Shown here: piece by piece, positions 9,911 to 20,741 of the stretch
How the letters are laid out: every line of letters begins with the position of its first letter
How positions within the stretch are numbered: the first letter of the stretch is position 1
Sequence record: MT944117.1
DNA length: 64,000 nucleotides
Source of the DNA: Escherichia phage PNJ1809-36
Strand: one strand, 5' to 3'
The notes under the pieces: generated by a model
The model's database searches: none
The model's input: the letters and a program-made list of their open reading frames with translations, nothing else
Told to the model about the DNA's origin: nothing
Made by a program: the position numbers and the translations under genes

Positions 9911-9937
9911 ATAGTGAAATTATGCAAGAGGTTTACA

Positions 9938-10033: not shown

Positions 10034-10041
10034 AAATATTC

Positions 10042-10102
10042 TTGACAACGTTTTTTAATCTGATAAGATGTATCACATAGGGCGGCGGAATACTTCCCCG
10101 CC
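10042..10102 (+). promoter_or_regulatory. early cassette promoter E5 with 5'-proximal stem-loop
   Basis: -35 TTGACA 10042-10047, TGaTAAGAT 10061-10069, stem-loop GGCGGCGGAA-TAC-TTCCCCGCC ~10080-10102. Confidence 0.65.
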
Positions 10103-10123
10103 AAAACAAAAAAGGGTAACACA

Positions 10124-10486
10124 ATGAGCAAGCAAATCAATACTATCATGTTTAATCTGGTATCTTTCCGCGATGATATGAAAAATTTACCACGTGAAAC
10201 GGTTGATATTCATGTTTCAGCTTATCGCGCCCTTATTGATATGTTACCGCTAAAACGTGATCAACATGCCGCTAATATGATGCTTAATGCTATGCTTAAA
10301 AAGATGATTCAAACGGATCTTACTCTGGCGTATGAGTATCAAGGGCGCTTATATGCTACTTACAACAAGGCGGTACCTGGTCTGGGAAGTACCGAAGAGT
10401 TGCACGGCTTAAACTTGGATCAGAACACTTGGGATAGTATGCGCCGCGTTATGGTATGGGCCGAAAGCGGTAAAATTTACGAATAA
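10124..10486 (+). CDS. hypothetical early protein (120 aa)
   Basis: ORF; SD AAAGGG. Confidence 0.65.
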   Translation: MSKQINTIMFNLVSFRDDMKNLPRETVDIHVSAYRALIDMLPLKRDQHAANMMLNAMLKKMIQTDLTLAYEYQGRLYATYNKAVPGLGSTEELHGLNLDQNTWDSMRRVMVWAESGKIYE

Positions 10487-10492
10487 AAACGG

Positions 10493-10552
10493 TTGACACT
10501 GTTTAAAATTCCGGTATAGTTTACCACATAGGGCGGGAAGTGGTTTCCCGCC
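10493..10552 (+). promoter_or_regulatory. early cassette promoter E6 with 5'-proximal stem-loop
   Basis: -35 TTGACA 10493-10498, -10 TATAGT 10515-10520, stem-loop GGCGGGAA-GTGGT-TTCCCGCC 10532-10552. Confidence 0.65.
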
Positions 10553-10574
10553 AACAATGAAAAAGGTTATCATC

Positions 10575-10940
10575 ATGGCTATTAATATTAATGTTTCCTC
10601 TTATGCTACCCTGGCTAACACGGCTAAAATTGAATTATCCAGCATTGAGGCGGTGCATATTAGCGCCCGTCGCTGGTTTCAACAGTCCTACGGTAACACA
10701 TATTTTTCTTTAATGGTTGACGTTGAGATCGGCGGTAAACTGATCGAGGTGGTTAACGTTCCGTTTCAATATGGCTATGGTGATCATTTTGATACCGTCG
10801 CCCTGGAAGAATTTAGCAAGGTTATCAACCTTGAGGGCAAGGAATTTTCACGCGGCGCGTATCTTTCCCGTTTTTGCCGTGACAATGGGATCACTGTATA
10901 CAGTCATGCAAGCGATGTTAAACGTAAAAAAGATCTATAA
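10575..10940 (+). CDS. hypothetical early protein (121 aa)
   Basis: ATG 10575 with SD AAAAGG; listed 10557 start abuts the hairpin with no SD. Confidence 0.6.
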   Translation: MAININVSSYATLANTAKIELSSIEAVHISARRWFQQSYGNTYFSLMVDVEIGGKLIEVVNVPFQYGYGDHFDTVALEEFSKVINLEGKEFSRGAYLSRFCRDNGITVYSHASDVKRKKDL

Positions 10941-10946
10941 AAAGCA

Positions 10947-11005
10947 TTGACAGCACGAATAAAAAGAGTAAACTGTATTACATAGAGAGCGGGAACACTT
11001 CCCGC
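10947..11005 (+). promoter_or_regulatory. early cassette promoter E7 with 5'-proximal stem-loop
   Basis: -35 TTGACA 10947-10952, -10 TAAACT 10969-10974, stem-loop GCGGGAA-CAC-TTCCCGC 10989-11005. Confidence 0.65.
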
Positions 11006-11029
11006 CTCACTGAAAAAGAGAGAAAAATC

Positions 11030-11269
11030 ATGGCTAAATCTAAAATGTACAACGGTCACAAAAACAAAACTCATTGGAATGTAAGCCTGTGGATTAATAA
11101 CGATGAGGGATTGTATCGGTTTGCATTGGGATTGATCAATGAGTGCGGTAATAAAGATCAGGCGGCTGATTTAATGTGCTACCGTTTGAAACAGGATGGA
11201 ATCACTACAACGCCAGACGGCTTTAAGTATAGTAAAACTGCAATCCGCGCCGCTATGGTTGGAATGTAA
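11030..11269 (+). CDS. hypothetical early protein (79 aa)
   Basis: ORF; SD AAGAGAG. Confidence 0.6.
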   Translation: MAKSKMYNGHKNKTHWNVSLWINNDEGLYRFALGLINECGNKDQAADLMCYRLKQDGITTTPDGFKYSKTAIRAAMVGM

Positions 11270-11282
11270 AGGAGACATAAAA

Positions 11283-11363
11283 ATGAAACATCGTTCGACC
11301 TATCTCACAAAACGTTTTAGCTTAGATCATAAATTGGGCTATTACGGAAGAAATAGAAAATAA
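11283..11363 (+). CDS. small basic peptide (26 aa)
   Basis: SD AAAGGAG + ATG 11283. Confidence 0.3.
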   Translation: MKHRSTYLTKRFSLDHKLGYYGRNRK

Positions 11364-11364
11364 T

Positions 11365-11424
11365 TTGACAACGTTTAAAATTAGTGTAAGATGTATCACA
11401 TAGGGCGGGAAGTGGTTTCCCGCC
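11365..11424 (+). promoter_or_regulatory. early cassette promoter E8 with 5'-proximal stem-loop
   Basis: -35 TTGACA 11365-11370, -10 TAAGAT 11387-11392, stem-loop GGCGGGAA-GTGGT-TTCCCGCC 11404-11424. Confidence 0.65.
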
Positions 11425-11446
11425 AACAACAGAGAGATTAAAGATT

Positions 11447-11674
11447 ATGGCTATCAATATTGTTCGTGTATCCGGCACCGTTGGCAGTTCCCAGGTTGTA
11501 GCAGTTGTAACAAACAAAAAGATTAATGATGTATGTGAGATCTTGAATAAGTGGGCTATTGCTAATTTTGGAGAATATGCGAGCGTCGAGTACATCGAAT
11601 CCTACCAGGTGCCAACCATCAGCCTAACCGATCTCAACGTTGATCGCCTGTTATGCCTGGATGAATTAATCTGA
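11447..11674 (+). CDS. hypothetical early protein (75 aa)
   Basis: ORF; leader AACAGAGAGATTAAAG. Confidence 0.6.
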   Translation: MAINIVRVSGTVGSSQVVAVVTNKKINDVCEILNKWAIANFGEYASVEYIESYQVPTISLTDLNVDRLLCLDELI

Positions 11675-11683
11675 AAAAGATTG

Positions 11684-11740
11684 TTGACACGGGAAAGAAA
11701 AAGAGTAAACTGTATTACGTAGGGCGGCAATGGTGCCGCT
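11684..11740 (+). promoter_or_regulatory. early cassette promoter E9 with 5'-proximal stem-loop
   Basis: -35 TTGACA 11684-11689, -10 TAAACT 11706-11711, stem-loop GGCGGCA-ATGG-TGCCGCT 11723-11740. Confidence 0.65.
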
Positions 11741-11764
11741 CACAACAGAAGAGAGATTATCACG

Positions 11765-11980
11765 ATGGCTAATATCCGCACACTGTTAAAAAATGCAAGT
11801 CAAGTTTTATTTTCAGATGACGAGTATTTCAATAAAGACATTACGGGCGTAAAAAGTCTTAAAGATGTAAAGGATGTAATAGGTATTCGCGGATCTTTAC
11901 GTAAGGGCGATTACTACGGTAACAAGGTGCAATATAAACTGTCAAAAGATTATGATTTTACTTTGACAATTATCAACTAA
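11765..11980 (+). CDS. hypothetical early protein (71 aa)
   Basis: ORF; leader CACAACAGAAGAGAGATTAT. Confidence 0.6.
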   Translation: MANIRTLLKNASQVLFSDDEYFNKDITGVKSLKDVKDVIGIRGSLRKGDYYGNKVQYKLSKDYDFTLTIIN

Positions 11981-11991
11981 GGGATCACAAA

Positions 11992-12150
11992 ATGAAAACT
12001 TGCCAATGTGGTAAAAAGTCTATCTCTGGTTTAAAACGTGGCGTTGCTCTTTGTCAATACCACTATAACGCTCAAACGTGGGGTAAGCAGTGGGCGGATC
12101 AGGTGGAAGAGGCAAAGAAAGAAAATATAAAAGTAGTTGCAAAGAAATAA
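11992..12150 (+). CDS. small Cys-containing protein (52 aa), possible zinc ribbon
   Basis: SD AAGGGA + ATG 11992; CQCG...LCQYHY. Confidence 0.4.
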   Translation: MKTCQCGKKSISGLKRGVALCQYHYNAQTWGKQWADQVEEAKKENIKVVAKK

Positions 12151-12198
12151 AAATAGAGTAAACTGTATTACATCAAGGCGGCGGAATGGTCCACCGCC
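12137..12198 (+). promoter_or_regulatory. early cassette promoter E10 with 5'-proximal stem-loop
   Basis: -35 TTGCAA 12137-12142, -10 TAAACT 12159-12164, two-helix stem-loop GGCGG-c-GGA-ATGG-TCC-a-CCGCC 12177-12198. Confidence 0.55.
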
Positions 12199-12222
12199 TA
12201 ACAAAGAGAAGAGGAAAATATC

Positions 12223-12390
12223 ATGATCACTTTCGCTACCCGTGAAGCCGCTCGCAACGTTGCACGTAAAGTTAACGCCGCCAACTTGGGCGCTACGCTT
12301 AAAGCCCCTGTAAAAGATGAATCAGGAAAATGGATCTTACCTGGTCTGCGTCATGCTGACAAGTTAGGTACTTTAAGCCTTAAAAAATAA
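12223..12390 (+). CDS. hypothetical early protein (55 aa)
   Basis: ATG 12223 after AGAGAAGAGG leader; N-terminus MITFA shared with next gene. Confidence 0.5.
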   Translation: MITFATREAARNVARKVNAANLGATLKAPVKDESGKWILPGLRHADKLGTLSLKK

Positions 12391-12393
12391 TCG

Positions 12394-12430
12394 TTGACTT
12401 TTCGTTATAGCGCCTTATAATGGGCGCTAT
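12394..12430 (+). promoter_or_regulatory. promoter E11 with perfect 8-bp inverted repeat flanking the -10
   Basis: -35 TTGACT 12394-12399, -10 TATAAT 12416-12421, IR ATAGCGCC (12406-12413) / GGCGCTAT (12423-12430). Confidence 0.6.
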
Positions 12431-12464
12431 AGAGAAGAGAAACCACTATTAACAAGGAAACATC

Positions 12465-12686
12465 ATGATTACTTTTGCTATTGTCGCCGTTGTTGCTGGT
12501 CAGGTTTACGTAAACGAGACATTTACTACAGAAGACAAGGCCGCAGGAGATATAACCGCCGTTTACAATGAGTGCAAGGCAGTAGAAAGGATGTTATCGC
12601 CTTGTATGCTAATGAGTGAACGTCAGGATGGGATAACAGTATTTACTAACATTGAAACAGGGTACCAAATGGTAGTAACAAAATAA
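12465..12686 (+). CDS. hypothetical early protein (73 aa)
   Basis: ORF; SD AAGGAAAC. Confidence 0.6.
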   Translation: MITFAIVAVVAGQVYVNETFTTEDKAAGDITAVYNECKAVERMLSPCMLMSERQDGITVFTNIETGYQMVVTK

Positions 12687-12689
12687 AGC

Positions 12690-12746
12690 TTGACACGTAT
12701 TTAATTTTCAGTAAACTGTTACACGTAGGGCGGGAATAGTTCCCGC
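12690..12746 (+). promoter_or_regulatory. early cassette promoter E12 with 5'-proximal stem-loop
   Basis: -35 TTGACA 12690-12695, -10 TAAACT 12712-12717, stem-loop GCGGGAA-TAG-TTCCCGC 12730-12746. Confidence 0.65.
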
Positions 12747-12764
12747 TAAAAAGAGAGAAAGACC

Positions 12765-13118
12765 ATGAAAGCACAAAATGCAATTAAAGAGTACATCCTT
12801 GCCGCTATCGATTTTAATGATTATGGTATTACAACCGAAAAAGAGAAGATCGCGGAATTGATGCGCCGTTTTAATTCCGAGTACTGGTACCCTGATAACC
12901 AATCACGTTTTAATTATAGTATTGTTAAAGCACTTGCATCATGGTTACAAGGTTTGCCATCAGATATTAATATCGCTTTCGAATATTGGGAAATTGATCG
13001 CTTGTTAACATCCTGGGGATACATTAAAGAGAATAGCAGCGATGATAAAATCCAACGAGAAAGGGAAAATTATTGGCTTTATATTGCAGGCGTGATCCTT
13101 GCTTGCTCTTATGAATGA
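12765..13118 (+). CDS. hypothetical early protein (117 aa)
   Basis: ORF; leader AAAGAGAGAAAGACC. Confidence 0.65.
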   Translation: MKAQNAIKEYILAAIDFNDYGITTEKEKIAELMRRFNSEYWYPDNQSRFNYSIVKALASWLQGLPSDINIAFEYWEIDRLLTSWGYIKENSSDDKIQRERENYWLYIAGVILACSYE

Positions 13119-13124
13119 TAAACC

Positions 13125-13178
13125 TTGACAATTTTACAAAACAGTTTAAATTAATAATATAGCGGCAATGGTGCCGCT
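13125..13178 (+). promoter_or_regulatory. early cassette promoter E13 with 5'-proximal stem-loop
   Basis: -35 TTGACA 13125-13130, -10 TAAATT ~13148-13153, stem-loop AGCGGCA-ATGG-TGCCGCT 13161-13178. Confidence 0.55.
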
Positions 13179-13197
13179 CATATAAAGAGGAAACAAA

Positions 13198-13344
13198 ATG
13201 AATACATCTAATCGCGCAGAAAAAATTCAATCTTCCAAGATCCGCAAGGCCTGGAATGAGGAAGTGATCCGCAAAGGCGACAAGCGCAATAAAACAAAGC
13301 GCGGGAAGAGTGACAAATATAATTGGATGGATTTAGAGAATTAA
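13198..13344 (+). CDS. small basic protein (48 aa), Lys/Arg-rich
   Basis: SD AAAGAGG + ATG 13198; KIRKAWNEEVIRKGDKRNKTKRGK. Confidence 0.45.
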   Translation: MNTSNRAEKIQSSKIRKAWNEEVIRKGDKRNKTKRGKSDKYNWMDLEN

Positions 13345-13352
13345 CATAACAA

Positions 13353-13378
13353 GGGCGCACCAAGCGCCCTTTCTTTTT
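13353..13378 (+). terminator. rho-independent terminator
   Basis: GGGCGC-ACCAA-GCGCCC followed by TTTCTTTTT; identical copy at 18808. Confidence 0.75.
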
Positions 13379-13399
13379 ACATGTAGAGGATAAACAAAA

Positions 13400-13585
13400 A
13401 TGACTTTAAACGAGCTTAAAACAGCCTATAACGCAACATTAAAAATAGCCGTGCGTTACCGTGACGAATACGGTTTTATTGCGCAGGGCGTGATCCTGGG
13501 CTTTTCTGACGATGGTTTGATCTATGTTGATGCACATCACAACAAGGTTAAACTTGAAAACGTCATTAGCATAAAATATCTTTAA
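13400..13585 (+). CDS. hypothetical early protein (61 aa)
   Basis: ORF; SD GAGGA. Confidence 0.55.
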   Translation: MTLNELKTAYNATLKIAVRYRDEYGFIAQGVILGFSDDGLIYVDAHHNKVKLENVISIKYL

Positions 13586-13591
13586 AAGTGG

Positions 13592-13650
13592 TTGACACCA
13601 TAACCGGACCTGTTAAACTGTATTACATCAGGCGGGGAATAGTTCCCCAC
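13592..13650 (+). promoter_or_regulatory. early cassette promoter E14 with 5'-proximal stem-loop
   Basis: -35 TTGACA 13592-13597, TGtTAAACT 13611-13619, stem-loop GGGGAA-TAG-TTCCCC 13634-13648. Confidence 0.65.
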
Positions 13651-13670
13651 CATACAAAAAGGTAAATATT

Positions 13671-13877
13671 ATGATCACCGCAAAACAAGAAAAAATCATT
13701 ATCGACGTTGCAGCCGTTGCCGCTATTGCTATTATCGGTACCTACTATGACACCGCGCGTCCTTCCTCCTTGCATGAGATCGCCGCCGTTGCATCAGTTG
13801 GCGTGCTGTTTTACGTTGGTAAACGTTATTTATCACCAATGATTAACAAGCTGACACCGTGGAAAAATAAAGGTTGA
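13671..13877 (+). CDS. small membrane protein (68 aa)
   Basis: ORF; two hydrophobic segments (VAAVAAIAIIGTYY, IAAVASVGVLFYVG). Confidence 0.6.
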   Translation: MITAKQEKIIIDVAAVAAIAIIGTYYDTARPSSLHEIAAVASVGVLFYVGKRYLSPMINKLTPWKNKG

Positions 13878-13929
13878 TCCTGTTTTATATTGTGTTATAG
13901 TTATCGTGTAGGGCGGCAATGGTGCCGCG
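13874..13929 (+). promoter_or_regulatory. early cassette promoter E15 with 5'-proximal stem-loop
   Basis: -35 TTGATC 13874-13879, TGtTATAGT 13893-13901, stem-loop GGCGGCA-ATGG-TGCCGC 13912-13929. Confidence 0.6.
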
Positions 13930-13948
13930 CCCCTTTGAGGATGCAATC

Positions 13949-14233
13949 ATGAGTAAAGCTAACACCGTGCTAATGTTTTCCCTGATTAATGATCCCGCTT
14001 ACTTGTCCAACATGACGCAGGAGGGTAACACATTAACGGCAACATTCACCAATAAGCTTGACCGAGTGATCATCATCTCACTGAAAACAGTTAGTAAAGG
14101 CTTTTACTCGTTAGCTTATCATTGGATCACTGATACCGATGAGACAAGCCAGGACTATAGCGCCCCTTTCCCTGAATCAATGGCACGGGAGATCATCGCC
14201 GCCGTTGTAAATGATGGTTTGTTTACTGCATAA
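13949..14233 (+). CDS. hypothetical early protein (94 aa)
   Basis: ATG 13949 after SD GAGGA; listed 13919 start lies within the hairpin. Confidence 0.6.
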   Translation: MSKANTVLMFSLINDPAYLSNMTQEGNTLTATFTNKLDRVIIISLKTVSKGFYSLAYHWITDTDETSQDYSAPFPESMAREIIAAVVNDGLFTA

Positions 14234-14251
14234 AATAATTTAGAAAAAGGC

Positions 14252-14308
14252 TTGCAATCATTTTGAGATAGTGTATATTTAATTCATAGGGCGGCGGGAA
14301 TAGTTCCC
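14252..14308 (+). promoter_or_regulatory. early cassette promoter E16 with short 5'-proximal stem-loop
   Basis: -35 TTGCAA 14252-14257, -10 TATATT 14274-14279, stem-loop GGGAA-TAG-TTCCC 14296-14308. Confidence 0.5.
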
Positions 14309-14331
14309 AAAGCAAACGAGAGGATTACACG

Positions 14332-14451
14332 ATGAGCAAGTACACAGTAGAATACACGGTAGAGAATCCGGTAGTATCCGAAGGTAAAAAGATGACATTT
14401 GCCATCAGTATAATCGCTTTCGTTGTCACTATCTTATCAATCATCTTATAA
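14332..14451 (+). CDS. small membrane peptide (39 aa)
   Basis: SD GAGAGGA + ATG 14332; C-terminal hydrophobic helix. Confidence 0.4.
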   Translation: MSKYTVEYTVENPVVSEGKKMTFAISIIAFVVTILSIIL

Positions 14452-14461
14452 GGTGCACACC

Positions 14462-14623
14462 ATGAAAATAACAGACATTATCAAAGAGATCGCCCTTGCC
14501 GCTGGCGTTGAAGTCGAGGAAGTGATCGCGCTCAATCTTACAGAAAACGATCTGCGCAACTATGAAGCGGAAAGCGTGAAAGCAAGCGGCGCGGTCCTGG
14601 TATATGATCCGGCTAACAAGTAA
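14462..14623 (+). CDS. hypothetical early protein (53 aa)
   Basis: ATG 14462 after SD AAGGTG; listed ORF 14423 start is upstream alternative. Confidence 0.5.
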   Translation: MKITDIIKEIALAAGVEVEEVIALNLTENDLRNYEAESVKASGAVLVYDPANK

Positions 14624-14632
14624 GGGGATAAC

Positions 14633-14743
14633 ATGAATCCGAAAGATATGCAAGCATGGAAAGGGTACGACGATCTAAGCGCCTTGCGCAATAAGTCAAG
14701 CCGTAACCTTAGACGGTTGGAAGCAAAGAAAAAGAAAAAATAG
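14633..14743 (+). CDS. small basic peptide (36 aa)
   Basis: SD AAGGGGA + ATG 14633; Lys-rich C-terminus. Confidence 0.35.
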   Translation: MNPKDMQAWKGYDDLSALRNKSSRNLRRLEAKKKKK

Positions 14744-14744
14744 T

Positions 14745-14801
14745 TTGACAAGTCCGCGTAGTCTGATAATATGTATCTTGTAGCGCGGCAATGGTGCCGC
14801 T
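14745..14801 (+). promoter_or_regulatory. early cassette promoter E17 with 5'-proximal stem-loop
   Basis: -35 TTGACA 14745-14750, TGaTAATAT 14764-14772, stem-loop GCGGCA-ATGG-TGCCGC 14785-14800. Confidence 0.65.
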
Positions 14802-14821
14802 CACAAGAAGAGAGAAAAATC

Positions 14822-15106
14822 ATGAAAATTACAAAAAGCCTAACTAATTATGCAGCACGTCGCGGATTATGCTTAACCGTTGAAAACTTAGGGAAAGAAG
14901 ACTTTTTGTGTTTTTGGGAGCTTGAGAATGATTGCGAGTGGATGTTTTCTTATTCTATCTGCGAAGATCAAAACGGTTGTTTGTTAACCTGGCGCGGTAA
15001 TATCTATTTACCGGAAGAAATTAAAGAAGAGTTACCAGGTACGATCATGACAGAGAGACAGCTTAAGGAAGTGATCAATTTTGTAGGGCAAAACATTAAA
15101 AAATAA
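14822..15106 (+). CDS. hypothetical early protein (94 aa)
   Basis: ATG 14822 after leader CACAAGAAGAGAGAAAAATC. Confidence 0.6.
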   Translation: MKITKSLTNYAARRGLCLTVENLGKEDFLCFWELENDCEWMFSYSICEDQNGCLLTWRGNIYLPEEIKEELPGTIMTERQLKEVINFVGQNIKK

Positions 15107-15107
15107 T

Positions 15108-15169
15108 TTGACAGTAGGCAAACAACGTAGTAAAGTTTATTACATAGAGCGGCGGAATGGTCCACCGCT
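15108..15169 (+). promoter_or_regulatory. early cassette promoter E18 with 5'-proximal stem-loop
   Basis: -35 TTGACA 15108-15113, -10 TAAAGT 15131-15136, two-helix stem-loop GCGG-c-GGA-ATGG-TCC-a-CCGC 15148-15169. Confidence 0.6.
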
Positions 15170-15191
15170 CACAACAGAAGAGAAACAAATC

Positions 15192-15362
15192 ATGATCCCG
15201 ACTATGTTTTATGTATCGCGCAAAGGTCACAATATTTTTTGGTCTGAAGATTTAAATGAAGCTATGACGTTTGCCCGTGATCGTGTTGCTATCGGTGGCG
15301 TTAACATCACCGTAACCGATGAAAATGGCATTGAATACTATAACGGCGACGATGAAGAATAA
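15192..15362 (+). CDS. hypothetical early protein (56 aa)
   Basis: ATG 15192 after conserved leader CACAACAGAAGAGAAACAAATC. Confidence 0.5.
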   Translation: MIPTMFYVSRKGHNIFWSEDLNEAMTFARDRVAIGGVNITVTDENGIEYYNGDDEE

Positions 15363-15369
15363 TTAATGA

Positions 15370-15390
15370 GGCGGGGGAGTATTCCCCGCC
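15370..15390 (+). ncRNA. promoter-less intercistronic GC stem-loop (same family as cassette hairpins)
   Basis: GGCGGGGGA-GTA-TTCCCCGCC, no T-run, no upstream -35/-10. Confidence 0.45.
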
Positions 15391-15409
15391 GTCAATAAAG
15401 AGGTAAATC

Positions 15410-15679
15410 ATGAAAATATCATTAGACGTTGCAATCAAGGCCATCGAATCTGGTTACATCCTGGTAAAAGATGATAAGGCTAAAATAGTGCATCATGTTA
15501 ACAAGGAAACAGGTGAAAGCATGATCACATATAAAGCCGCCTACTTTCTCCAATCAGTAGCAGATCCGCGCGTACAACGCCAGGTTACGGCGGCTATTGC
15601 TAAAAAATTATGTGCTTTACAGGGTACAAGTTTTAACGAGATCGCCCCGTGTTTTGAGTGGTCAAGCTTGAAAAAATAA
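15410..15679 (+). CDS. hypothetical early protein (89 aa)
   Basis: ORF; SD AAAGAGG. Confidence 0.6.
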   Translation: MKISLDVAIKAIESGYILVKDDKAKIVHHVNKETGESMITYKAAYFLQSVADPRVQRQVTAAIAKKLCALQGTSFNEIAPCFEWSSLKK

Positions 15680-15680
15680 T

Positions 15681-15742
15681 TTGACAACAATTATAAATCG
15701 GGTAGAATGTATTTCGTAGGGCGGGGCAATAAGGCAACGCCC
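15681..15742 (+). promoter_or_regulatory. early cassette promoter E19 with degenerate 5'-proximal stem-loop
   Basis: -35 TTGACA 15681-15686, -10 TAGAAT 15703-15708, GGGCG...CGCCC 15719-15742. Confidence 0.55.
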
Positions 15743-15760
15743 ATTAATGAGGGTAGAATC

Positions 15761-15865
15761 ATGTTAGAGAAAATTTTCACGGTCGTAGTAGTGGGCCTGG
15801 CGTTATCGGTTGGAGTGGTTGCGACTATGGCTAACATGATCCTATCTTCCCACGGTATCGGCTAA
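15761..15865 (+). CDS. small membrane peptide (34 aa)
   Basis: SD GAGGG + ATG 15761; hydrophobic helix. Confidence 0.4.
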   Translation: MLEKIFTVVVVGLALSVGVVATMANMILSSHGIG

Positions 15866-15879
15866 AAGAGAGACACAAC

Positions 15880-16266
15880 ATGAAAACAGAAATCATTATT
15901 GAAATCATCAACGGCTATAAAGAAGCCTTTATTTTTGCTGAATCAGCAAGGGATCATGAAGGTAATTTTATTGATAACTTAGACGATTATGATTTTTCTC
16001 CTAGCGCGGACGAACGGATCGCCCAGGATGTAACAGCCTTTATTAATGCTAATCTTGCCGCTATCTCTGAGGCAATGAGCGACGGCGCAACAGCCAACCA
16101 GATCGGGAATGATTTACATTTTACCCGTAACAGTCACGGCGTAGGCTTTTGGGATCGCCCTGAAATATACACCACTAACACAGCCAACCGCCTAACCAAT
16201 GCAGCTAAGTTTATGCCGAACGTGTCGGCTTACATTGGTGAAGATAATTTGATTTATATTGAATAA
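15880..16266 (+). CDS. hypothetical early protein (128 aa)
   Basis: ORF; SD AAAAGAGAG. Confidence 0.65.
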   Translation: MKTEIIIEIINGYKEAFIFAESARDHEGNFIDNLDDYDFSPSADERIAQDVTAFINANLAAISEAMSDGATANQIGNDLHFTRNSHGVGFWDRPEIYTTNTANRLTNAAKFMPNVSAYIGEDNLIYIE

Positions 16267-16272
16267 AAAGTA

Positions 16273-16329
16273 TTGACACAGATCGCCAGTGTGCTAATAT
16301 TTACCACGTAGGGCGGCAATGGTGCCGCC
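16273..16329 (+). promoter_or_regulatory. early cassette promoter E20 with 5'-proximal stem-loop
   Basis: -35 TTGACA 16273-16278, TGcTAATAT 16292-16300, perfect stem-loop GGCGGCA-ATGG-TGCCGCC 16312-16329. Confidence 0.65.
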
Positions 16330-16347
16330 GATAATGAGGAAAGTAAA

Positions 16348-16647
16348 ATGGAAACTATCGCTATTGTTACCGTAGAAAAACTGGTTGTTGGTGATGTATT
16401 CGCGTTAATGGTGCCTAACAGCAGCAAGCTGGGCGCTTATGAAGTAATGGATCATAAAAATGAATCATTTGGCGACGGTTGCACAATGGCGGTAAAATCC
16501 TTAAAGGATGGAATCATCCGTCAAGCTAATTGGCACAAAGGGAATCAAGTCGGATTAATATCAGCTAATTTCTTGCCAGAAGAGCAAACGTTAGACCAAC
16601 TATCAGGCGGTAAGACGTTAGCCGAACTACTGGAAACAGCGATCTAA
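16348..16647 (+). CDS. hypothetical early protein (99 aa)
   Basis: ORF; SD GAGGAAAG. Confidence 0.65.
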   Translation: METIAIVTVEKLVVGDVFALMVPNSSKLGAYEVMDHKNESFGDGCTMAVKSLKDGIIRQANWHKGNQVGLISANFLPEEQTLDQLSGGKTLAELLETAI

Positions 16648-16655
16648 TCAACAAA

Positions 16656-16669
16656 GGGCGGCAACGCCC
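16656..16669 (+). ncRNA. promoter-less intercistronic GNRA-tetraloop hairpin
   Basis: GGGCG-GCAA-CGCCC, no T-run. Confidence 0.4.
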
Positions 16670-16690
16670 CACATCAGAAAGGAAAAGATT

Positions 16691-16927
16691 ATGAGTATTG
16701 CAACAGTATTAACCGCCGTTAAAACCGCTGAATCATCCGGCTTGCATGTTGAGCTTATAGATCAACCAGGTGGCGATCTCCTTGTCCAGGTTTACCCGCC
16801 GAAAGTAGGAGATGATTATTATTGGTGCTATTCTGATACGTTCGAACAAGTAGACACGAAAGCGATCACGGCTTTTATTTTAAAAGCTGTTGAAGAAAAT
16901 AACTTTCATTATAACATCAATCAATAA
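16691..16927 (+). CDS. hypothetical early protein (78 aa)
   Basis: ORF; SD AAAGGAAAAG. Confidence 0.6.
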   Translation: MSIATVLTAVKTAESSGLHVELIDQPGGDLLVQVYPPKVGDDYYWCYSDTFEQVDTKAITAFILKAVEENNFHYNINQ

Positions 16928-16936
16928 ACTTTAAGC

Positions 16937-16952
16937 AGGGCGGTAACGCCCT
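16937..16952 (+). ncRNA. promoter-less intercistronic GNRA-tetraloop hairpin
   Basis: AGGGCG-GTAA-CGCCCT, no T-run. Confidence 0.4.
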
Positions 16953-16982
16953 ATTAAACGCAATAGGAAGAGGATAGAAAGC

Positions 16983-17273
16983 ATGAAAAAGATGATCGCA
17001 GTAGTTGCCCTGGTTGTTGGTATTAACGCGCCTGCAATGGCTAATGATTTGCCTGAATCCATCACGTTAACCGATATCAACGCGGTAAACCGGATCGGTG
17101 TTAATTATCGCCTATGCCTTGCCGCTAAAACTTTCCAGGACGGCACGACAGAATACCACGGATTCGAGGGTATCCGCTGCGGTGAGCTTGCACGCGACCT
17201 TAAGGAAGATCCAGACCTTGAGGCCATACCGATGACCGTAAACGGTAAAGCTTACGTAAACCGCCAACAATGA
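16983..17273 (+). CDS. secreted/periplasmic small protein with signal peptide
   Basis: MKKMIAVVALVVGINAPAMA signal-like N-terminus; SD GGAAGAGG. Confidence 0.65.
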   Translation: MKKMIAVVALVVGINAPAMANDLPESITLTDINAVNRIGVNYRLCLAAKTFQDGTTEYHGFEGIRCGELARDLKEDPDLEAIPMTVNGKAYVNRQQ

Positions 17274-17284
17274 GAAAGGTAATC

Positions 17285-17404
17285 ATGACAATGGGGATCA
17301 TAGTAGCAACGCTGGCGCTGATCCCCTTCCTGGTTGAATATGTGCTGATTAGTGTTGTCCTGGTAGTCAGTGACTTATTGGAAACGGTTGGCACCTGGTT
17401 TTAA
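17285..17404 (+). CDS. small membrane peptide (39 aa)
   Basis: SD GAGAAAGG + ATG 17285; hydrophobic throughout. Confidence 0.4.
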   Translation: MTMGIIVATLALIPFLVEYVLISVVLVVSDLLETVGTWF

Positions 17405-17416
17405 GGAGTAATAAAA

Positions 17417-17608
17417 ATGAATGCAGAACAAGTTAGAAAGGTATTAGCAGCGTTGCGGTATCACAACCATAGCAAGGTAAAGAATGATCCTGATTATGTG
17501 GATTCAAGCCTGGAAGAAGACACATTGCAAGCTATAAGCCATATGCAAGAATTGTTTAAGCGTATGACAGAGAAAAACAGATCTGATTATATAGGTGACG
17601 AGATCTAA
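17417..17608 (+). CDS. hypothetical early protein (63 aa)
   Basis: ORF; SD AAGGAG. Confidence 0.6.
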   Translation: MNAEQVRKVLAALRYHNHSKVKNDPDYVDSSLEEDTLQAISHMQELFKRMTEKNRSDYIGDEI

Positions 17609-17620
17609 TCCTTACAAAAA

Positions 17621-17646
17621 CAGGGCTTGCTTTTGTCCTGTTTTTT
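17621..17646 (+). terminator. putative rho-independent terminator
   Basis: CAGGGC-loop-GTCCTG (one G-U) followed by TTTTTT. Confidence 0.45.
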
Positions 17647-17785
17647 GTTATACTTATTGAACGGGCGGCACCTGGTAGCAGGGGAAGATAATCACCGGAC
17701 GACCCCGCTATATATTGATAGCTAACATCTATCAAACAACAAAACATCAAAGAAATAAACTATCAAATCTTTACAATGCTACCTA

Positions 17786-17846
17786 TTGACACCGGATCAC
17801 GCTTACATTATTATTTATCACGTAGGGCGAGCAATACAGCAAGCCC
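17786..17846 (+). promoter_or_regulatory. early cassette promoter E21 with degenerate 5' stem-loop
   Basis: -35 TTGACA 17786-17791, -10 TATTAT 17809-17814, conserved TTATCACGTAGGGCG initial sequence. Confidence 0.55.
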
Positions 17847-17863
17847 ACAAAGAGGAAAATAAA

Positions 17864-18232
17864 ATGAGCAAATCAGCAATTAAAGCACTTGAAAAAGCAC
17901 AAGAAGTGATCGCAACGTCAACCACTGGCGCAAAGGTTAATCTCGTTGGTTATCTGACAGATGAAACTATCCGTAAAAATTGGCGTAATGCTGATTTACT
18001 GGCTTGCTTATTGATTAATAGTGTCGCTAATGCTTTCCAGTGTGAAACAGCCGAGAGCCTGGAGGCAAACTTGTTCGACAGTATGGATCAAGCCATTGAA
18101 ACCTATATTCAATCAAATTTAGATAGCTGGAACAATAAAACATGGCCCGACAACTTACGCGATACAACTGATCAACTGATCCGCCTTGCCGTGATGGTTG
18201 AACGCGATAACGTTCACAACCGCACAAAGTAA
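17864..18232 (+). CDS. hypothetical early protein (122 aa)
   Basis: ATG 17864 after SD AAAGAGGAAAA. Confidence 0.65.
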   Translation: MSKSAIKALEKAQEVIATSTTGAKVNLVGYLTDETIRKNWRNADLLACLLINSVANAFQCETAESLEANLFDSMDQAIETYIQSNLDSWNNKTWPDNLRDTTDQLIRLAVMVERDNVHNRTK

Positions 18233-18243
18233 GATTATACAAG

Positions 18244-18263
18244 GGGCGCACTAAGCGCCCTTT
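18244..18263 (+). terminator. putative terminator hairpin (short T-tract)
   Basis: GGGCGC-ACTAA-GCGCCC followed by TTT. Confidence 0.4.
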
Positions 18264-18290
18264 AACGTAAAGAAATGTAAATAATGCGCT

Positions 18291-18327
18291 ATCCCCTATT
18301 GACAGGGGATCGGCGTTATATTATATT
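18291..18327 (+). promoter_or_regulatory. promoter E22 with 7-bp inverted repeat straddling the -35
   Basis: IR ATCCCCT (18291-18297) / AGGGGAT (18305-18311) around TTGACA 18299-18304; -10 TATATT 18322-18327. Confidence 0.55.
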
Positions 18328-18372
18328 TAACTCACTGGCAGCAAACAACGAAACGAAACAAAGGACAACACC

Positions 18373-18792
18373 ATGAACATTAAATCAAATAATCCAGCTT
18401 ACTCCTTCGATAACGCTTTTTGTCACGGTAGCGCCGCCAAAGGCTTCGAAATCGATGGTAAATTGGTTATCGTGAACGTTGACGGGGAAGAGGTTGCAGT
18501 ATATCCGGTAAACGATGTTAAAAGCCGTTTACAATGCCGCATGGATGTTACCGCATATCAGCTTGATCCGGTCCGTGTAGTTGCCCTGGTATTAGAGGAA
18601 GAGATCAAAGCAATGCATCATAGTAATAAGTTTATTGGTGACGCGCAGGATAATATGAACGTTTGCCGCCATAAAGTTAATGAAGCCTTGAAAGAATGCG
18701 GTTTTAAGGATCTGATGATTAAACGTGATGAAAAATTCCGCTTTCGTAATGACCTGGCAAACCGGATCTACTCAATCTATGAAGCGTTATAA
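18373..18792 (+). CDS. hypothetical protein (139 aa)
   Basis: ORF; SD AAAGGA. Confidence 0.65.
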   Translation: MNIKSNNPAYSFDNAFCHGSAAKGFEIDGKLVIVNVDGEEVAVYPVNDVKSRLQCRMDVTAYQLDPVRVVALVLEEEIKAMHHSNKFIGDAQDNMNVCRHKVNEALKECGFKDLMIKRDEKFRFRNDLANRIYSIYEAL

Positions 18793-18807
18793 TTGACAAC
18801 AAAACAA

Positions 18808-18833
18808 GGGCGCACCAAGCGCCCTTTCTTTTT
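18808..18833 (+). terminator. rho-independent terminator closing the early array
   Basis: GGGCGC-ACCAA-GCGCCC followed by TTTCTTTTT. Confidence 0.75.
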
Positions 18834-20366
18834 GCCCGAATAATGTTGATAGATTCCGCCTATGAAAAACCGACACAGAACAAAACTGAATAGATCGCGG
18901 TATCGAGCTAATCAACCATTAAACGAATAACCATACCTCCCAGGGTAACAGGTTGTTAGAGAGCCATTTAGAGCGGTTAAAATCGATCAACAACCAACAA
19001 CAAACCATCAAAAACACCCTTTTACCTCCTTTCTAGTGCAATGATAACCATTATCATCTATCCATGTTTATCTATGCAATATAAGTGCATAACTATAATG
19101 TTGATAATAGTTCGCAACAACTAACTAACCAACAACCTAAAACAATAAGCAAACTAATCATAATCAAAGGAATAATAGCAAGATGATTGATAACGACAAA
19201 CAATCAAACCATGATGAATACTAAGCAAGATAACGATAACACGACAAAACAACCAACTAACGAACAATAACAAACGAAACCATTAAAATAACAACTATTA
19301 GCAAAATAGTGCCTGAATGAAATCATTACAAAACGAATCATTCACAGGATCATCATTAGCACGCTATGCCGGACACATAGCGAGCTAATAATAAGCCAAC
19401 TACACCCCAACAATCATAACCATCGGTGATGGTTATTTCTTGTTACTGCGTAGCTTGCAATAATTGCAAGCGTAATGACGCTTACACTTATTGCGCTGGC
19501 TTATTATTAGCATTATATGTAATTACCAAGATCATAACATTAGCGCAATAACAATAATCATTGTGGTAATTACAAGATGAAATAATCGCTATCGCTCAAA
19601 GATTATTAGCAAGATGAATAATTGCACGTAGCAACATGAGCGAATAGCGACAGGTTGCATAGTGTGCACATAGATGTACACGCAGTGTATAAACATACAG
19701 GAAAATAAAGGCTAATCTTTTGGGGGCGAATACTATCGCGTAGCGATATGTTGAGCATCTTCTCTTAAACGTAAATAAAATCAGAAAATTCTTGATTTAT
19801 TTTAATTTTTATGTTAATAAACGTTTAAATAATAATCATTCTCATATGAATAATAGTCTGCTTGTCATGAGCGGGATTAGTTGACAATGTTCCGTCATAT
19901 GATGAGGTTGCCAAACCATTGATAAATAAGTGTTTGTGTGATTTATAATCAAGCGGCCCACCTTGTCGCTATGTTGGCATGAGCCTTGCATAAGTCATTG
20001 AATACGAATGATAATTATTCTCATTCGCATGATATTTGGGAATTGTCGCTGCGTGGACCTGACGGCCCGAAAATTCGCGTTAAGCACTTCTTACGTATGT
20101 GCCATGATTTTTGCCATATGATATTGATTCTACTAGATATTCTTGCCATGATTGCCATGAAACAGGGTGTCCCGAAATAATCTCTCCCTGTAGATATTTT
20201 GGGTTACTTTTTATACAAGAGTGGGGTGTCAAAAATAATTGGTATATATGGGATAATTGATAGGAATCCCCTATGATAATTCGATTGTAATTCCCTAAGA
20301 TTGATCGTATGATGTTGGTGATTGATGATTGCCATGAAAGATGGCTAACGATGAGAGGAGATTATC
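18834..20366. other. gene-free 1.5-kb region, strand-skewed A+C-rich (CAA/AAC-rich, G/T-poor on plus strand)
   Basis: no credible ORF; long tracts such as aaccaacaacaaaccatcaaaaacaccc and acaaaacaaccaactaacgaacaataacaaacg. Confidence 0.7.
20100..20337. repeat. five copies of TTGCCATGA-type motif including a perfect tandem pair
   Basis: TGCCATGA at ~20100, TTGCCATATGA ~20111, TTGCCATGATTGCCATGA 20143-20160, TTGCCATGA 20329-20337. Confidence 0.6.
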
Positions 20367-20741
20367 ATGCAAGAGAGTAAAAATGTTCCGTTGAGTAGTG
20401 CAACATTGCTTCGCTTCTATAAAGCATGGATTGCCAACTATCCTGCAATGAATCGCACAACGAGTGGCTTATGTGGTTGTCTGGTAGATTATGTAGATGA
20501 TTTTGTTGGTGAGACAACTAGAGAAGAAGATAGAAGATGGCGTGATCATTTGTTGGACCGTTTGAAATATGAAATGAGGAAACAATTTACATGTGCAGGG
20601 CTGGACTACAATCTTCCGTTCAATGCAGATTGCATGGATTACCTTTCAGAGTGTATAAACTTGGCGTGTCATACCAACACGTTACGTCTTCAATGGGTGA
20701 AAGACAGAATCGAAGATGCAAATAATGCTTGCATTGAATAA
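20367..20741 (+). CDS. paralog family member 1 (GLC...PF...WVKDR family)
   Basis: SD GAGAGGAG; FYKAWIANYP..SGLCGCL...LPFN...LRLQWVKDRIED. Confidence 0.65.
   Translation: MQESKNVPLSSATLLRFYKAWIANYPAMNRTTSGLCGCLVDYVDDFVGETTREEDRRWRDHLLDRLKYEMRKQFTCAGLDYNLPFNADCMDYLSECINLACHTNTLRLQWVKDRIEDANNACIE

What the first reader, a model, noticed from the sequence alone, without database searches (positions are those of the whole stretch)
18291..18327. Promoter with a 7-bp inverted repeat straddling the -35 hexamer
ATCCCCT-ATTGAC-AGGGGAT places a dyad exactly over the -35 of the promoter for gene 18373..18792, which lies between two terminators and lacks the 5' hairpin. It looks like an individually regulated transcription unit at the end of the early array.
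Basis: seen in the sequence. Interest (0 to 1): 0.45.

Follow-up and report, generated by a model that had tools for sequence, protein, structure and literature searches.

The report
Promoter with built-in terminator hairpin
The 7-bp inverted repeat over the -35 box is real and conserved, but it behaves like the stem of an RNA hairpin that stops transcripts coming from upstream (a composite promoter/terminator cassette already known from T4-like phages) rather than like a repressor binding site, so it is a tidy but fairly ordinary piece of phage gene organisation.

Summary
The window is a phAPEC8-like coliphage (Phapecoctavirus). The dyad ATCCCCT-ATTGAC-AGGGGAT (18291-18310) and the promoter TTGACA-17-TATATT (18299-18327) are exactly as described. 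The dyad occurs once in the window.

It is the core of a longer + strand hairpin (18287-18315, 11 pairs, one bulged C, RNA dG about -15.5 kcal/mol). An A-rich tract precedes it and a U-rich tail follows; that tail is the promoter's spacer and -10.

Across 42 related loci (15 haplotypes, two phage subfamilies), pairing is kept rather than sequence:
- 95% of cells are paired, and 4 of 11 pairs changed on both sides.
- A paired C/G deletion occurs, so the dyad spans 18-20 bp.
- Every G.U pair has its U in the 5' arm, so the + strand is the structured one.

A metagenomic relative has its module junction inside the dyad and keeps the promoter without the left arm. The same gene elsewhere uses a promoter with the hairpin downstream of the -10.

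Best reading (confidence about 0.5): a PeSL-like composite promoter/terminator that attenuates read-through from the upstream cassette, so this conserved ORFan runs from its own promoter. An operator is not excluded but is disfavoured. Interest is low to moderate.

The parts
17786..17814 (+). Promoter of the upstream cassette (TTGACA-17-TATTAT). It looks paralogous to the promoter under study (shared CCTATTGACAnnGGATC and a 17-nt spacer) and is the source of transcripts that could read into the hairpin.
   Evidence: comparison of the two promoters by eye.
18241..18263 (+). Upstream terminator-like hairpin T1 (AAGGGGCGC-ACTAA-GCGCCCTTT). It has the same hairpin family as the canonical terminators at 13351 and 18806, but its U tract is only UUU followed by AACG, so it is probably leaky.
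   Evidence: I3; dG -14.7; tail score 0.12 when the UUU is counted as stem; not flagged by the scan.
18264..18286 (+). A/T-rich tract upstream of the hairpin (AACGTAAAGAAATGTAAATAATG, 78% A+T). It is partly complementary to the U-rich tail.
   Evidence: extended pairing predicted (137-nt fold).
18287..18315 (+). Extended + strand hairpin: 11 pairs, 6-nt loop ATTGAC, bulged C at 18311, U.G pair 18290-18312. Its core is the reported dyad, 18291-18297 with 18304-18310.
   Evidence: RNA dG -15.5 to -17.7 kcal/mol, z about -4; covariation.
18299..18304 (+). -35 hexamer TTGACA, lying in the hairpin loop and the first base of the 3' arm.
18316..18328 (+). U-rich tail of the hairpin (TTATATTATATTT). 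It is also the distal spacer and the -10 hexamer TATATT (18322-18327).
   Evidence: tail score 2.88, against 2.90 and 2.99 for the canonical terminators at 18806 and 13351.
18334..18372 (+). Inferred 5' UTR (+1 near 18334 by distance from the -10, not mapped). Predicted unstructured, with Shine-Dalgarno AGGA at 18362-18365.
   Evidence: sequence; 137-nt fold shows no pairing here.
18373..18792 (+). Gene for a 139-aa ORFan (homologue of phAPEC8_0017 and rV5 ORF164; PHROG 12277, unknown function).
18806..18826 (+). Canonical bidirectional intrinsic terminator T3 that closes the unit (tail TCTTTTTGCC).

Best explanation
The dyad is the stem of an RNA hairpin embedded in a sigma-70 promoter. Together they form a composite promoter/terminator of the PeSL type (promoter-early stem-loop).

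Inferred mechanism: transcripts started at the upstream cassette promoter (17786) pass the weak hairpin T1, which has only three U. They then fold the 11-pair hairpin at 18287-18315, whose loop is the -35 hexamer. The U-rich stretch that follows (UUAUAUUAUAUUU) is the promoter's spacer and -10. These transcripts are terminated or attenuated there, or at least acquire a protective 3' hairpin. Gene 18373-18792 is therefore expressed essentially from its own promoter, whose transcripts start downstream of the hairpin and do not contain it.

Shown here: the sequence, the promoter match, conservation and covariation of the pairing, the strand asymmetry, the A-tract/hairpin/U-tail layout, and modular recombination at this element.

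Inferred, not shown: that read-through RNA exists, that termination occurs at this site, and that the promoter fires as predicted.
For: 1. Pairing, not sequence, is conserved. With 42 loci and 15 distinct haplotypes aligned by covariance model R1, 95.2% of cells form standard pairs, against 88.7 +/- 1.2 in shuffles (0 of 500 reach it). Four of 11 pairs changed on both sides. The covariation score is 0.306 against 0.180 (0 of 500). Partner columns slid by 1-3 give at most 51% paired.

2. Concrete series within Vequintavirus: ATCCCTG/CAGGGAT, then ATCCTTG/CAGGGAT (U.G intermediate), then ATCCTTG/CAAGGAT. Between subfamilies there is a paired C and G deletion (CCCC/GGGG versus CCC/GGG), and the outermost pair is C-G versus U-A.

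3. Strand asymmetry: all G.U cells have U in the 5' arm. One U.G pair is present in 12 of 15 haplotypes. The + strand fold is more stable than the - strand fold in 13 of the 15 haplotypes folded, by up to 6.6 kcal/mol; the exceptions are L002 and the degenerate A7_1, each by 0.2.

4. Terminator-like layout: hairpin dG is -15.5, similar to the -14.1 of the window's canonical terminators. The tail score is 2.88, against 2.90 and 2.99. An A-rich tract lies upstream. The preceding hairpin T1 has only UUU.

5. Conserved island: hairpin plus spacer plus -10 are 77% identical between the window and rV5_ev156. The flanks are about 54% identical, and synonymous third positions of the gene 68%.

6. The same gene carries other promoter/hairpin arrangements in other lineages. 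In L003/L019 it is TTGAAT-17-TAAAAT followed by hairpin GGGCC-GAAA-GGCCC downstream of the -10 (dG -11.5, z -4). In L009/L010 a small CCCG-AAAA-CGGG hairpin sits in the spacer; this one is weak.

7. In L014, homology to the window (99% over 618 bp) starts at 18295, inside the dyad at CCTATTGACA. This is a module junction at the element.

8. Published precedent: PeSLs of T4-like phages RB49/phi1 combine a strong sigma-70-like promoter, an AT-rich upstream region and a polyG/polyC stem-loop. [quoted passage not shown] Recombination between PeSLs shuffles ORFans (PMC2839356; PMC4122927).
Against: - No transcript data exist for these phages, so read-through and termination here are unproven.
- The U tail is interrupted (UUAUAUUA), and any promoter has an AT-rich -10 region, so the tail could be a by-product.
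- The consensus terminator scan did not call the site, because the stem has a bulge.
- My d'Aubenton-Carafa-type score, using a formula recalled from memory, is below that of the canonical terminators (-13 versus about +1 to +2).
- Several natural haplotypes carry a broken pair: phiWec179 G.G, Pr121LW U.U, L035 C.A.
- A7_1 has no significant hairpin (z -0.6).
- L014 lacks the left arm altogether, so the hairpin is dispensable in some contexts.
- Single-sided changes are consistent with pairing in only about half the cases, close to the neutral expectation.
- Both-sided changes in inverted repeats can also arise mutationally, by template switching (quasi-palindrome correction), without selection.
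- The alignment used for counting was fitted to the structure, and the sequences are closely related.
Confidence: 0.5

Rival explanations
1. Operator: a dimeric phage or host DNA-binding protein recognises the dyad on double-stranded DNA. By covering the -35 hexamer it represses or times the promoter of gene 18373-18792.
For: - A perfect 7-bp dyad centred near -33.5 sits where a repressor would occlude sigma region 4.
- The outer ATCC...GGAT is almost invariant in both subfamilies.
- The promoter core is a conserved island.
- The gene is insulated as its own unit and is highly conserved: about 90% amino-acid identity across two subfamilies.
Against: - The dyad spans 18, 19 or 20 bp among close relatives, so half-site spacing and helical phase are not fixed.
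- Inner positions change on both arms together within phages more than 95% identical. That fits pairing, not a fixed protein specificity.
- The conserved pairing extends asymmetrically (bulged C, U.G), which is meaningless for a duplex operator.
- There is no second copy in 64 kb.
- The downstream gene product shows no DNA-binding family or fold.
- L014 keeps the promoter without the left arm.
- Other lineages drive the same gene from promoters with unrelated hairpins.
Confidence: 0.12
2. No function of its own: a quasi-palindrome next to a conserved promoter, kept symmetric by mutational template switching and shared ancestry. Selection acts only on the -35, spacer and -10.
For: - A single such repeat over one of about 30 promoters is only modestly unlikely.
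- Within Vequintavirus, all 5 variable columns of the 47-nt region lie in the stem, as expected if the stem is the least constrained part.
- Broken-pair haplotypes and a variant lacking the left arm exist.
- Single-sided changes respect pairing only about half the time.
Against: - Four pairs changed on both sides, plus a paired indel.
- 95% of cells are paired, against at most 51% for slid partners.
- The commonest haplotypes are the fully paired ones.
- The hairpin persists across two subfamilies whose flanking intergenic DNA is unalignable.
- G.U pairs are consistently asymmetric, favouring one strand. A purely DNA-level symmetric process would not produce that.
Confidence: 0.2
3. An RNA element other than a terminator: a 3' protective hairpin or processing site for the upstream cassette's mRNA. 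The wider A/U-rich pairing, about 23 pairs, could be an RNase III-type substrate.
For: - There is + strand-specific pairing.
- The 137-nt fold predicts a long imperfect helix from 18273 to 18328, dG -38.9, z -4.9.
- T7-type early mRNAs are processed at intergenic hairpins (established knowledge).
Against: - The outer A/U pairing is not obviously conserved in the Vequintavirus sequences (checked by eye only).
- There is no Rfam match.
- A terminator reading already explains the hairpin-plus-U-tail layout.
Confidence: 0.1
4. A DNA-level structure: a + strand hairpin or cruciform that presents or hides the -35 hexamer according to supercoiling, or that serves as a preferred recombination site for cassette shuffling.
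For: - The module junction in L014 lies at the loop/arm boundary.
- In RB49 a crossover was mapped to the loop of a PeSL stem-loop (PMC2839356).
- Phage N4 shows that short hairpins can extrude from supercoiled DNA (own knowledge).
Against: - DNA hairpin energies are small: -5.1 kcal/mol for the core and -8 to -9 for the extended form.
- A cruciform needs both strands, yet the - strand carries an A.C mismatch in most haplotypes.
- These phages are not known to encode a hairpin-reading polymerase.
Confidence: 0.08

Closest known systems
PeSL (promoter-early stem-loop) composite promoter/terminator cassettes of T4-like phages RB49/phi1, PST, nt-1 (Arbiol et al. 2010, PMC2839356; Comeau et al. 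2014, PMC4122927)
   Same: [quoted passage not shown]
- Stable stem-loop with C and G runs. One of the five published PeSL subclasses has the stem-loop overlapping the -35 box.
- Intergenic position, directly before the SD and start codon of a small ORFan in an early, hyperplastic region.
- Neighbouring cassettes carry related promoter-plus-hairpin units.
- A natural recombinant has its junction at the element (L014).
   Different: - Found in Stephanstirmvirinae and Vequintavirinae, not T4-like phages, with no sequence similarity to published PeSLs.
- Here C4...G4, rather than polyG followed by polyC.
- In this array the usual hairpin position is downstream of the -10, in the 5' UTR. This promoter is the only one in the window with the hairpin over the -35.
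- Terminator activity and mini-circle formation were not tested.
Rho-independent (intrinsic) terminators, including bidirectional ones with an A tract and a U tract
   Same: GC-rich hairpin of about -15 kcal/mol, a U-rich 3' tail, an A-rich 5' flank, and a position directly after an upstream gene.
   Different: - The stem carries a bulge and the U tract is interrupted by A.
- The element doubles as a promoter, with the -35 in the loop and the -10 in the tail.
- A consensus scan does not call it.
Dyad operators overlapping the -35 hexamer (lambda cI/Cro operators and P22 Mnt/Arc operators as classic examples; own knowledge)
   Same: A 20-bp element with twofold symmetry covering the -35 of a strong promoter.
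   Different: Variable half-site spacing, covarying arms, asymmetric extension, a single copy, and no identified binding protein.
Phage N4 early promoters (DNA hairpins extruded from supercoiled DNA and read by the virion RNA polymerase; own knowledge)
   Same: A short GC-rich inverted repeat within a promoter, where pairing rather than sequence matters.
   Different: N4 hairpins have 3-nt loops centred near -12 and need the N4 virion RNA polymerase. This is a standard sigma-70 promoter with the repeat at -35, and no such polymerase is known in these phages.

Membership tests
PeSL-type composite promoter/terminator | Strong sigma-70 consensus promoter | tested here: met
   TTGACA-17-TATATT, 11 of 12 matches. 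The homologous site is annotated as promoter P164 in rV5. Activity was not measured.
PeSL-type composite promoter/terminator | [quoted passage not shown] | tested here: met
   18264-18286 is 78% A+T.
PeSL-type composite promoter/terminator | Stable G/C-tract stem-loop within or next to the promoter (five published positions, including overlap with the -35) | tested here: met
   Perfect 7-bp core. The 11-pair extended hairpin has dG -15.7 with z -4.0, and 0 of 200 shuffles fold as well. Pairing is conserved with covariation. Published positions are quoted.
PeSL-type composite promoter/terminator | Intergenic, between an upstream stop codon and the SD/start of an ORFan in a hyperplastic early region with many similar cassettes | tested here: met
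   ORFs and annotation. The array of promoter-plus-hairpin cassettes from 8604 to 17786. The gene product has no known family and only 8 hits among 1.84 billion representatives.
PeSL-type composite promoter/terminator | Recombination between elements creates cassette insertions, deletions or replacements | tested here: met
   In L014, 99% identity to the window starts at 18295 (CCTATTGACA). Upstream lies a different cassette carrying the 17786-type promoter half. This is a single example from a metagenomic contig.
PeSL-type composite promoter/terminator | The stem-loop terminates or attenuates transcription from upstream | not testable with these tools
   Indirect support only: the U-rich tail score of 2.88 is comparable to canonical terminators, and the preceding hairpin is weak.
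Intrinsic terminator | GC-rich hairpin immediately followed by a U tract | tested here: inconclusive
   Hairpin dG is -15.5. Five U fall in the first 8 nt after the extended stem, but they are interrupted. The scan did not flag the site because it does not allow a bulge.
Intrinsic terminator | RNA 3' ends at the U tract | not testable with these tools
   A library search (Vequintavirus + RNA-seq) listed 3 papers; none was opened, and by title none is a transcriptome study of these phages.
Dyad operator for a dimeric repressor | Twofold symmetric sequence on duplex DNA overlapping a promoter element | tested here: met
   7+7 bp perfect dyad with a 6-bp spacer over the -35.
Dyad operator for a dimeric repressor | Fixed half-site spacing and conserved contacted bases among orthologous sites | tested here: not met
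   Total length is 20 bp (window), 19 bp (rV5_ev156, rV5) and 18 bp (typing phage 4, bov10K2, phita32). Four of the 7 core positions vary.
Dyad operator for a dimeric repressor | Further sites or a cognate regulator in the same genome | tested here: inconclusive
   No other copy with 2 or fewer mismatches in the 64-kb window. The adjacent gene product has no DNA-binding family or fold match (model pLDDT only 69.5). The remaining ~86 kb of the genome and the host were not searched.
Dyad operator for a dimeric repressor | Specific protein binding | not testable with these tools
   Needs EMSA, footprinting or DNA pull-down.

The most novel reading that the evidence does not exclude
The hairpin-over-(-35) design is a genuine switch rather than a passive terminator. 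One possibility is an unknown phage or host factor that reads the dyad or the extruded hairpin. Another is that upstream transcription or supercoiling toggles -35 availability. Either would give separate timing control of an ORFan that is about 90% identical in amino-acid sequence across two phage subfamilies and always sits last in the early array, next to a large non-coding region.
Probability: 0.12. Interest if true: 0.55.

Novelty: new member of a known kind. Interest (0 to 1): 0.3.

Why it matters
If correct, composite promoter/terminator cassettes (PeSL-like units) are not confined to T4-like phages. They would also organise the early ORFan arrays of rV5-like and phAPEC8-like coliphages, including their role as recombination joints for gene shuffling.

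This promoter is also a useful natural control. Its hairpin lies upstream of its own transcription start, so whatever selects for the pairing cannot be 5'-end protection of the gene's own mRNA. That narrows what the hairpins in these arrays can be doing.

Practically, it flags the 139-aa ORFan as an insulated, separately driven early gene worth testing. It also warns annotators that the 30-codon ORF called over this promoter in some records is probably spurious.

Tried and rejected
It was uninformative.
- Protein-based locus searches found few extra relatives: 3 in IMG/VR and 8 in metagenomes. Most comparative data came from GenBank phage records and exact-protein look-ups.
- Function of the gene product: Pfam gave only sub-threshold noise, and PHROG 12277 is 'unknown'. 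A full HMMER scan of 1.84 billion representatives gave 8 hits, none informative. The AlphaFold model had pLDDT 69.5, and Foldseek against the PDB gave no hit with E<=0.001. Autoregulation by this protein therefore has no support.
- Rfam on 17500-20500 gave one sub-threshold snoRNA-like chance hit.
- Host transcription-factor motifs recalled from memory (CRP, TyrR, IscR type 2, DnaA box, LTTR box) do not fit the dyad. This was not tested formally.
- Dam regulation through the invariant GATC in the 3' arm was rejected as special. GATC is over-represented in the window (338 observed, 227 expected), and the neighbouring promoters at 16273 and 17786 carry it too.
- An upstream promoter that would put the hairpin at a 5' end: none was found by the scan or by eye.
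- A coding role for ORF 18284-18376: the reading frame and length are not conserved in Vequintavirus, the ORF has no SD, and it lies upstream of the predicted start site.
- MAFFT alignment A2 put the two arms out of register between subfamilies, so covariation was counted on the covariance-model alignment A4 instead.

Full report
**Identity of the window.** The region is 96-98% identical to phAPEC8-like coliphages (Phapecoctavirus, Stephanstirmvirinae), with phage tuntematon the best hit. In phAPEC8 the gene downstream of the finding is phAPEC8_0017, a hypothetical protein. It is followed by an annotated terminator and then about 1.5 kb without genes.

- The arms ATCCCCT (18291-18297) and AGGGGAT (18304-18310) are perfectly complementary, with 6 nt between them.
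- The promoter scan reports TTGACA at 18299, a 17-nt spacer and TATATT ending at 18327, 11 of 12 consensus matches.
- The -35 hexamer therefore sits in the loop and the first base of the 3' arm.
- The full dyad is unique in the window.
- Listing every TTGACA with its context shows how the array is built. Most promoters between 8604 and 17786 share an A-rich upstream element, TTGACA, a 16-nt spacer and a TAAnnT -10. A conserved GC-rich hairpin (TAGGGCGG...CCGCC, dG about -12 to -16) follows a few bases after the -10.
- The upstream 'terminator' (18241-18263) has only UUU followed by AACG and was not flagged by the scan. The downstream one (18806-18826) is canonical.

**Chance.** Perfect 7-bp inverted repeats with 3-8 nt loops are enriched in this window: 81 against 29 +/- 6 in shuffles. 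For GC-rich ones the figures are 38 against 3.9 +/- 2.1. This reflects the many cassette hairpins. One repeat landing on one of about 30 promoters is not in itself compelling, so I relied on comparative data.

**Relatives.**
- The 139-aa protein has homologues only in Phapecoctavirus (at least 95% identity) and in rV5-like Vequintavirinae (about 90%), plus a few fragments and one homologue at 78%.
- rV5 itself annotates the homologous site as 'Sigma70-type promoter; P164' in front of ORF164.
- The rV5 paper places gene 164 at the end of the transcription unit 10-1-238-164; its genome map also marks a 'non-coding' box (PMC3606486). The rV5-like loci fetched here have about 1.1-2.5 kb without annotated genes after this gene.
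- I collected the upstream region from 47 loci.

**What varies and what does not**.
- Phapecoctavirus mostly has ATCCCCT-ATTGAC-AGGGGAT. Of 45 GenBank records, 29 are identical over 82 nt. Variants are ATTCCCT (phAPEC8, U.G), ATCGCCT (phiWec179, broken pair) and ATCCCT (DIJ07P2, one C lost).
- Vequintavirus shows a graded series:
  - ATCCCTG-GTTGA-CAGGGAT
  - ATCCTTG...CAGGGAT (a U.G intermediate)
  - ATCCTTG...CAAGGAT (rV5 itself; both sides changed)
  - ATCCTT-ATTGAC-AAGGAT
  - ATCTCTG...CAGGGAT (U.G)
  - ATCCTTG...CATGGAT (broken pair)
  - ATCCCTT...CAGGGAT (loop-closing pair lost)
- Between the subfamilies, one C in the 5' arm and one G in the 3' arm are missing together.
- The dyad thus spans 18, 19 or 20 bp in closely related phages.

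**The structure is larger than the reported dyad.**
- Folding shows 11 pairs with a bulged C and a U.G pair: 18287-18315, CGCUAUCCCCU-AUUGAC-AGGGGAU-C-GGCG. The dG is -15.5 to -17.7 kcal/mol with z about -4. The same architecture appears in rV5-type sequences.
- The outermost pair is C-G in Phapecoctavirus and U-A in Vequintavirus.
- I built a covariance model from seven Vequintavirus haplotypes (A3, R1) and used it to align 42 loci (15 distinct rows). Counting on that alignment gave these results:
  - 95.2% of cells paired, against 88.7 +/- 1.2 in shuffles (0 of 500 reach it).
  - 4 of 11 pairs with changes on both sides.
  - Covariation score 0.306 against 0.180 +/- 0.020 (0 of 500).
  - Partners slid by 1-3 columns give at most 51% paired and at most one such pair.
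- Caveats: the alignment is fitted to the structure, the sequences are close relatives, and inverted repeats can be 'corrected' mutationally by template switching.

**Strand asymmetry.** Every G.U cell has U in the 5' arm. One U.G pair is present in 12 of 15 haplotypes, and the other three have C-G there. On the - strand these would be A.C mismatches. Accordingly the + strand fold is more stable than the - strand fold in 13 of the 15 haplotypes folded. The gap is largest in variant haplotypes, for example -14.8 against -9.1 in phAPEC8 and -13.5 against -6.9 in L021; the two exceptions, L002 and the degenerate A7_1, differ by only 0.2 kcal/mol. This points to a single-stranded + strand molecule, most simply RNA transcribed from upstream. 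The promoter's own transcripts start downstream of the hairpin.

**Terminator-like context.**
- The extended hairpin is preceded by an A-rich tract (78% A+T).
- It is followed directly by UUAUAUUAUAUUU, which is the distal spacer and -10 of the promoter.
- Its tail score (2.88) equals those of the window's canonical terminators (2.90 and 2.99), and its hairpin energy is similar (-15.5 against -14.1).
- The composite d score is lower because the hairpin is long. I recalled that formula from memory, so only the relative values are useful.
- In rV5-type phages the tail is GUUUUGCUAUAUUCUUUUUU, and the preceding hairpin there also has a poor U tract.
- Hairpin plus spacer plus -10 form a conserved island: 77% identity between subfamilies, against about 54% for both flanks and 68% at synonymous third positions of the gene.

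**Modularity.**
- In the metagenomic contig L014, 99% identity to the window begins at 18295 (CCTATTGACA...) and runs 618 bp through the gene and its terminator. Upstream lies a different cassette ending with the upstream half of a 17786-type promoter.
- The junction is thus inside the dyad, and the left arm is replaced while the promoter stays intact.
- The promoters at 17786 and 18299 look paralogous: both carry CCTATTGACAnnGGATC and a 17-nt spacer.
- In L003/L019 (93% protein identity) the same gene is preceded by TTGAAT-17-TAAAAT and a GGGCC-GAAA-GGCCC hairpin downstream of the -10 (dG -11.5, z -4.05).
- In L009/L010 (78% identity) a possible TTGCAC-16-TATAAT promoter has a small CCCG-AAAA-CGGG hairpin in the spacer. 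This is weak (z -1.8), and the promoter was not called by the scan.
- A7_1 has a degenerate version with no significant hairpin.

**Comparison with known systems.**
- This combination matches the PeSL elements described in the T4-like phages RB49 and phi1. Those are strong sigma-70-like promoters with an AT-rich upstream region and a stable G/C-tract stem-loop.
- The stem-loop's position defines five subclasses: between the -35 and -10, overlapping the -35, overlapping the -10, upstream of the -35, or just downstream of the -10.
- The stem-loop is proposed to terminate or attenuate transcription from upstream, and in one case it reduced reporter expression about as much as rrnB T1.
- Recombination between PeSLs inserts, deletes and replaces ORFans, with one crossover mapped to the loop (PMC2839356; PMC4122927).
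- The array in this window fits the 'downstream of the -10' subclass, and the promoter under study fits the 'overlapping the -35' subclass.
- The taxonomic setting differs (Stephanstirmvirinae and Vequintavirinae rather than T4-like phages), there is no sequence similarity to published PeSLs, and the terminator function here is untested.

**Why not an operator.**
- A rigid dimer would need fixed half-site spacing and conserved contact bases. Neither is seen.
- The conserved pairing continues asymmetrically through a bulge.
- There is no second site in 64 kb.
- The adjacent gene product shows no DNA-binding family or fold.
- Natural genomes tolerate loss of one arm.
- The operator remains possible (I give it about 0.12), because the outer ATCC...GGAT is nearly invariant and the position is ideal for repression.

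**Verdict.** The 'operator' part is not. The best-supported explanation is a PeSL-like composite promoter/terminator (confidence about 0.5). In this model an RNA hairpin attenuates read-through from the upstream cassette, and gene 18373-18792 runs from its own promoter. This is a new member of a known kind, of low to moderate interest (0.3).

Noticed in passing
window 8604-17814: An early array of roughly 17 cassettes, each with an A-rich upstream element, TTGACA, a 16-nt spacer and a TAAnnT -10. A conserved GC-rich hairpin (TAGGGCGG-loop-CCGCC, dG about -12 to -16) lies a few bases after the -10 and has no U tract. rV5-like and A7_1 loci have the same design with other hairpin sequences (L005, L007, L013). 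The whole array looks PeSL-like.
   Followed up: partly
L014 1382-2039 (metagenome contig ERZ1090862 NODE_37) versus window 18295-18911: A mosaic relative. The gene module (from the -35 hexamer to just past the terminator) is 99% identical to the window, but it is joined at CCTATTGACA to a different upstream cassette. Similarity also ends at 18911. This is an example of promoter-mediated module exchange.
   Followed up: partly
window 18830-20360: About 1.5 kb of AT-rich DNA without convincing ORFs after the last early gene. The rV5 genome map also marks a 'non-coding' box. It holds only scattered short repeats and gave no Rfam match. Its function is unknown; a replication origin is one guess.
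   Followed up: partly
window 13351-13371, 18241-18263, 18806-18826: Three copies of nearly the same terminator hairpin (AAGGGCGCACYAAGCGCCCTT). The copies at 13351 and 18806 have strong T tracts and score on both strands. The copy at 18241 has lost the T tract.
   Followed up: partly
window 18373-18792 and homologues: The 139-aa ORFan is about 90% identical in amino-acid sequence between two phage subfamilies, while the DNA on both sides is unalignable. First and second codon positions are 93% identical and third positions 66%, which indicates strong purifying selection. The family is tiny: 8 hits among 1.84 billion representative proteins.
   Followed up: yes
window 18284-18376: A 30-codon ORF lying over the promoter and hairpin; several GenBank records list a 'hypothetical protein' under this stretch and MiataMamis has a CDS at the homologous site. 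It is not conserved in frame or length in Vequintavirus, has no SD, and is probably spurious.
   Followed up: partly
GenBank records: Records labelled Campylobacter, Acinetobacter and Pseudomonas phages are near-identical to these coliphages. This suggests mislabelled hosts or coliphage contaminants in those isolations.
   Followed up: no
window, whole: GATC is over-represented: 338 observed against 227 expected from base composition. It also occurs in the spacers of the last three array promoters (16273, 17786, 18299).
   Followed up: no
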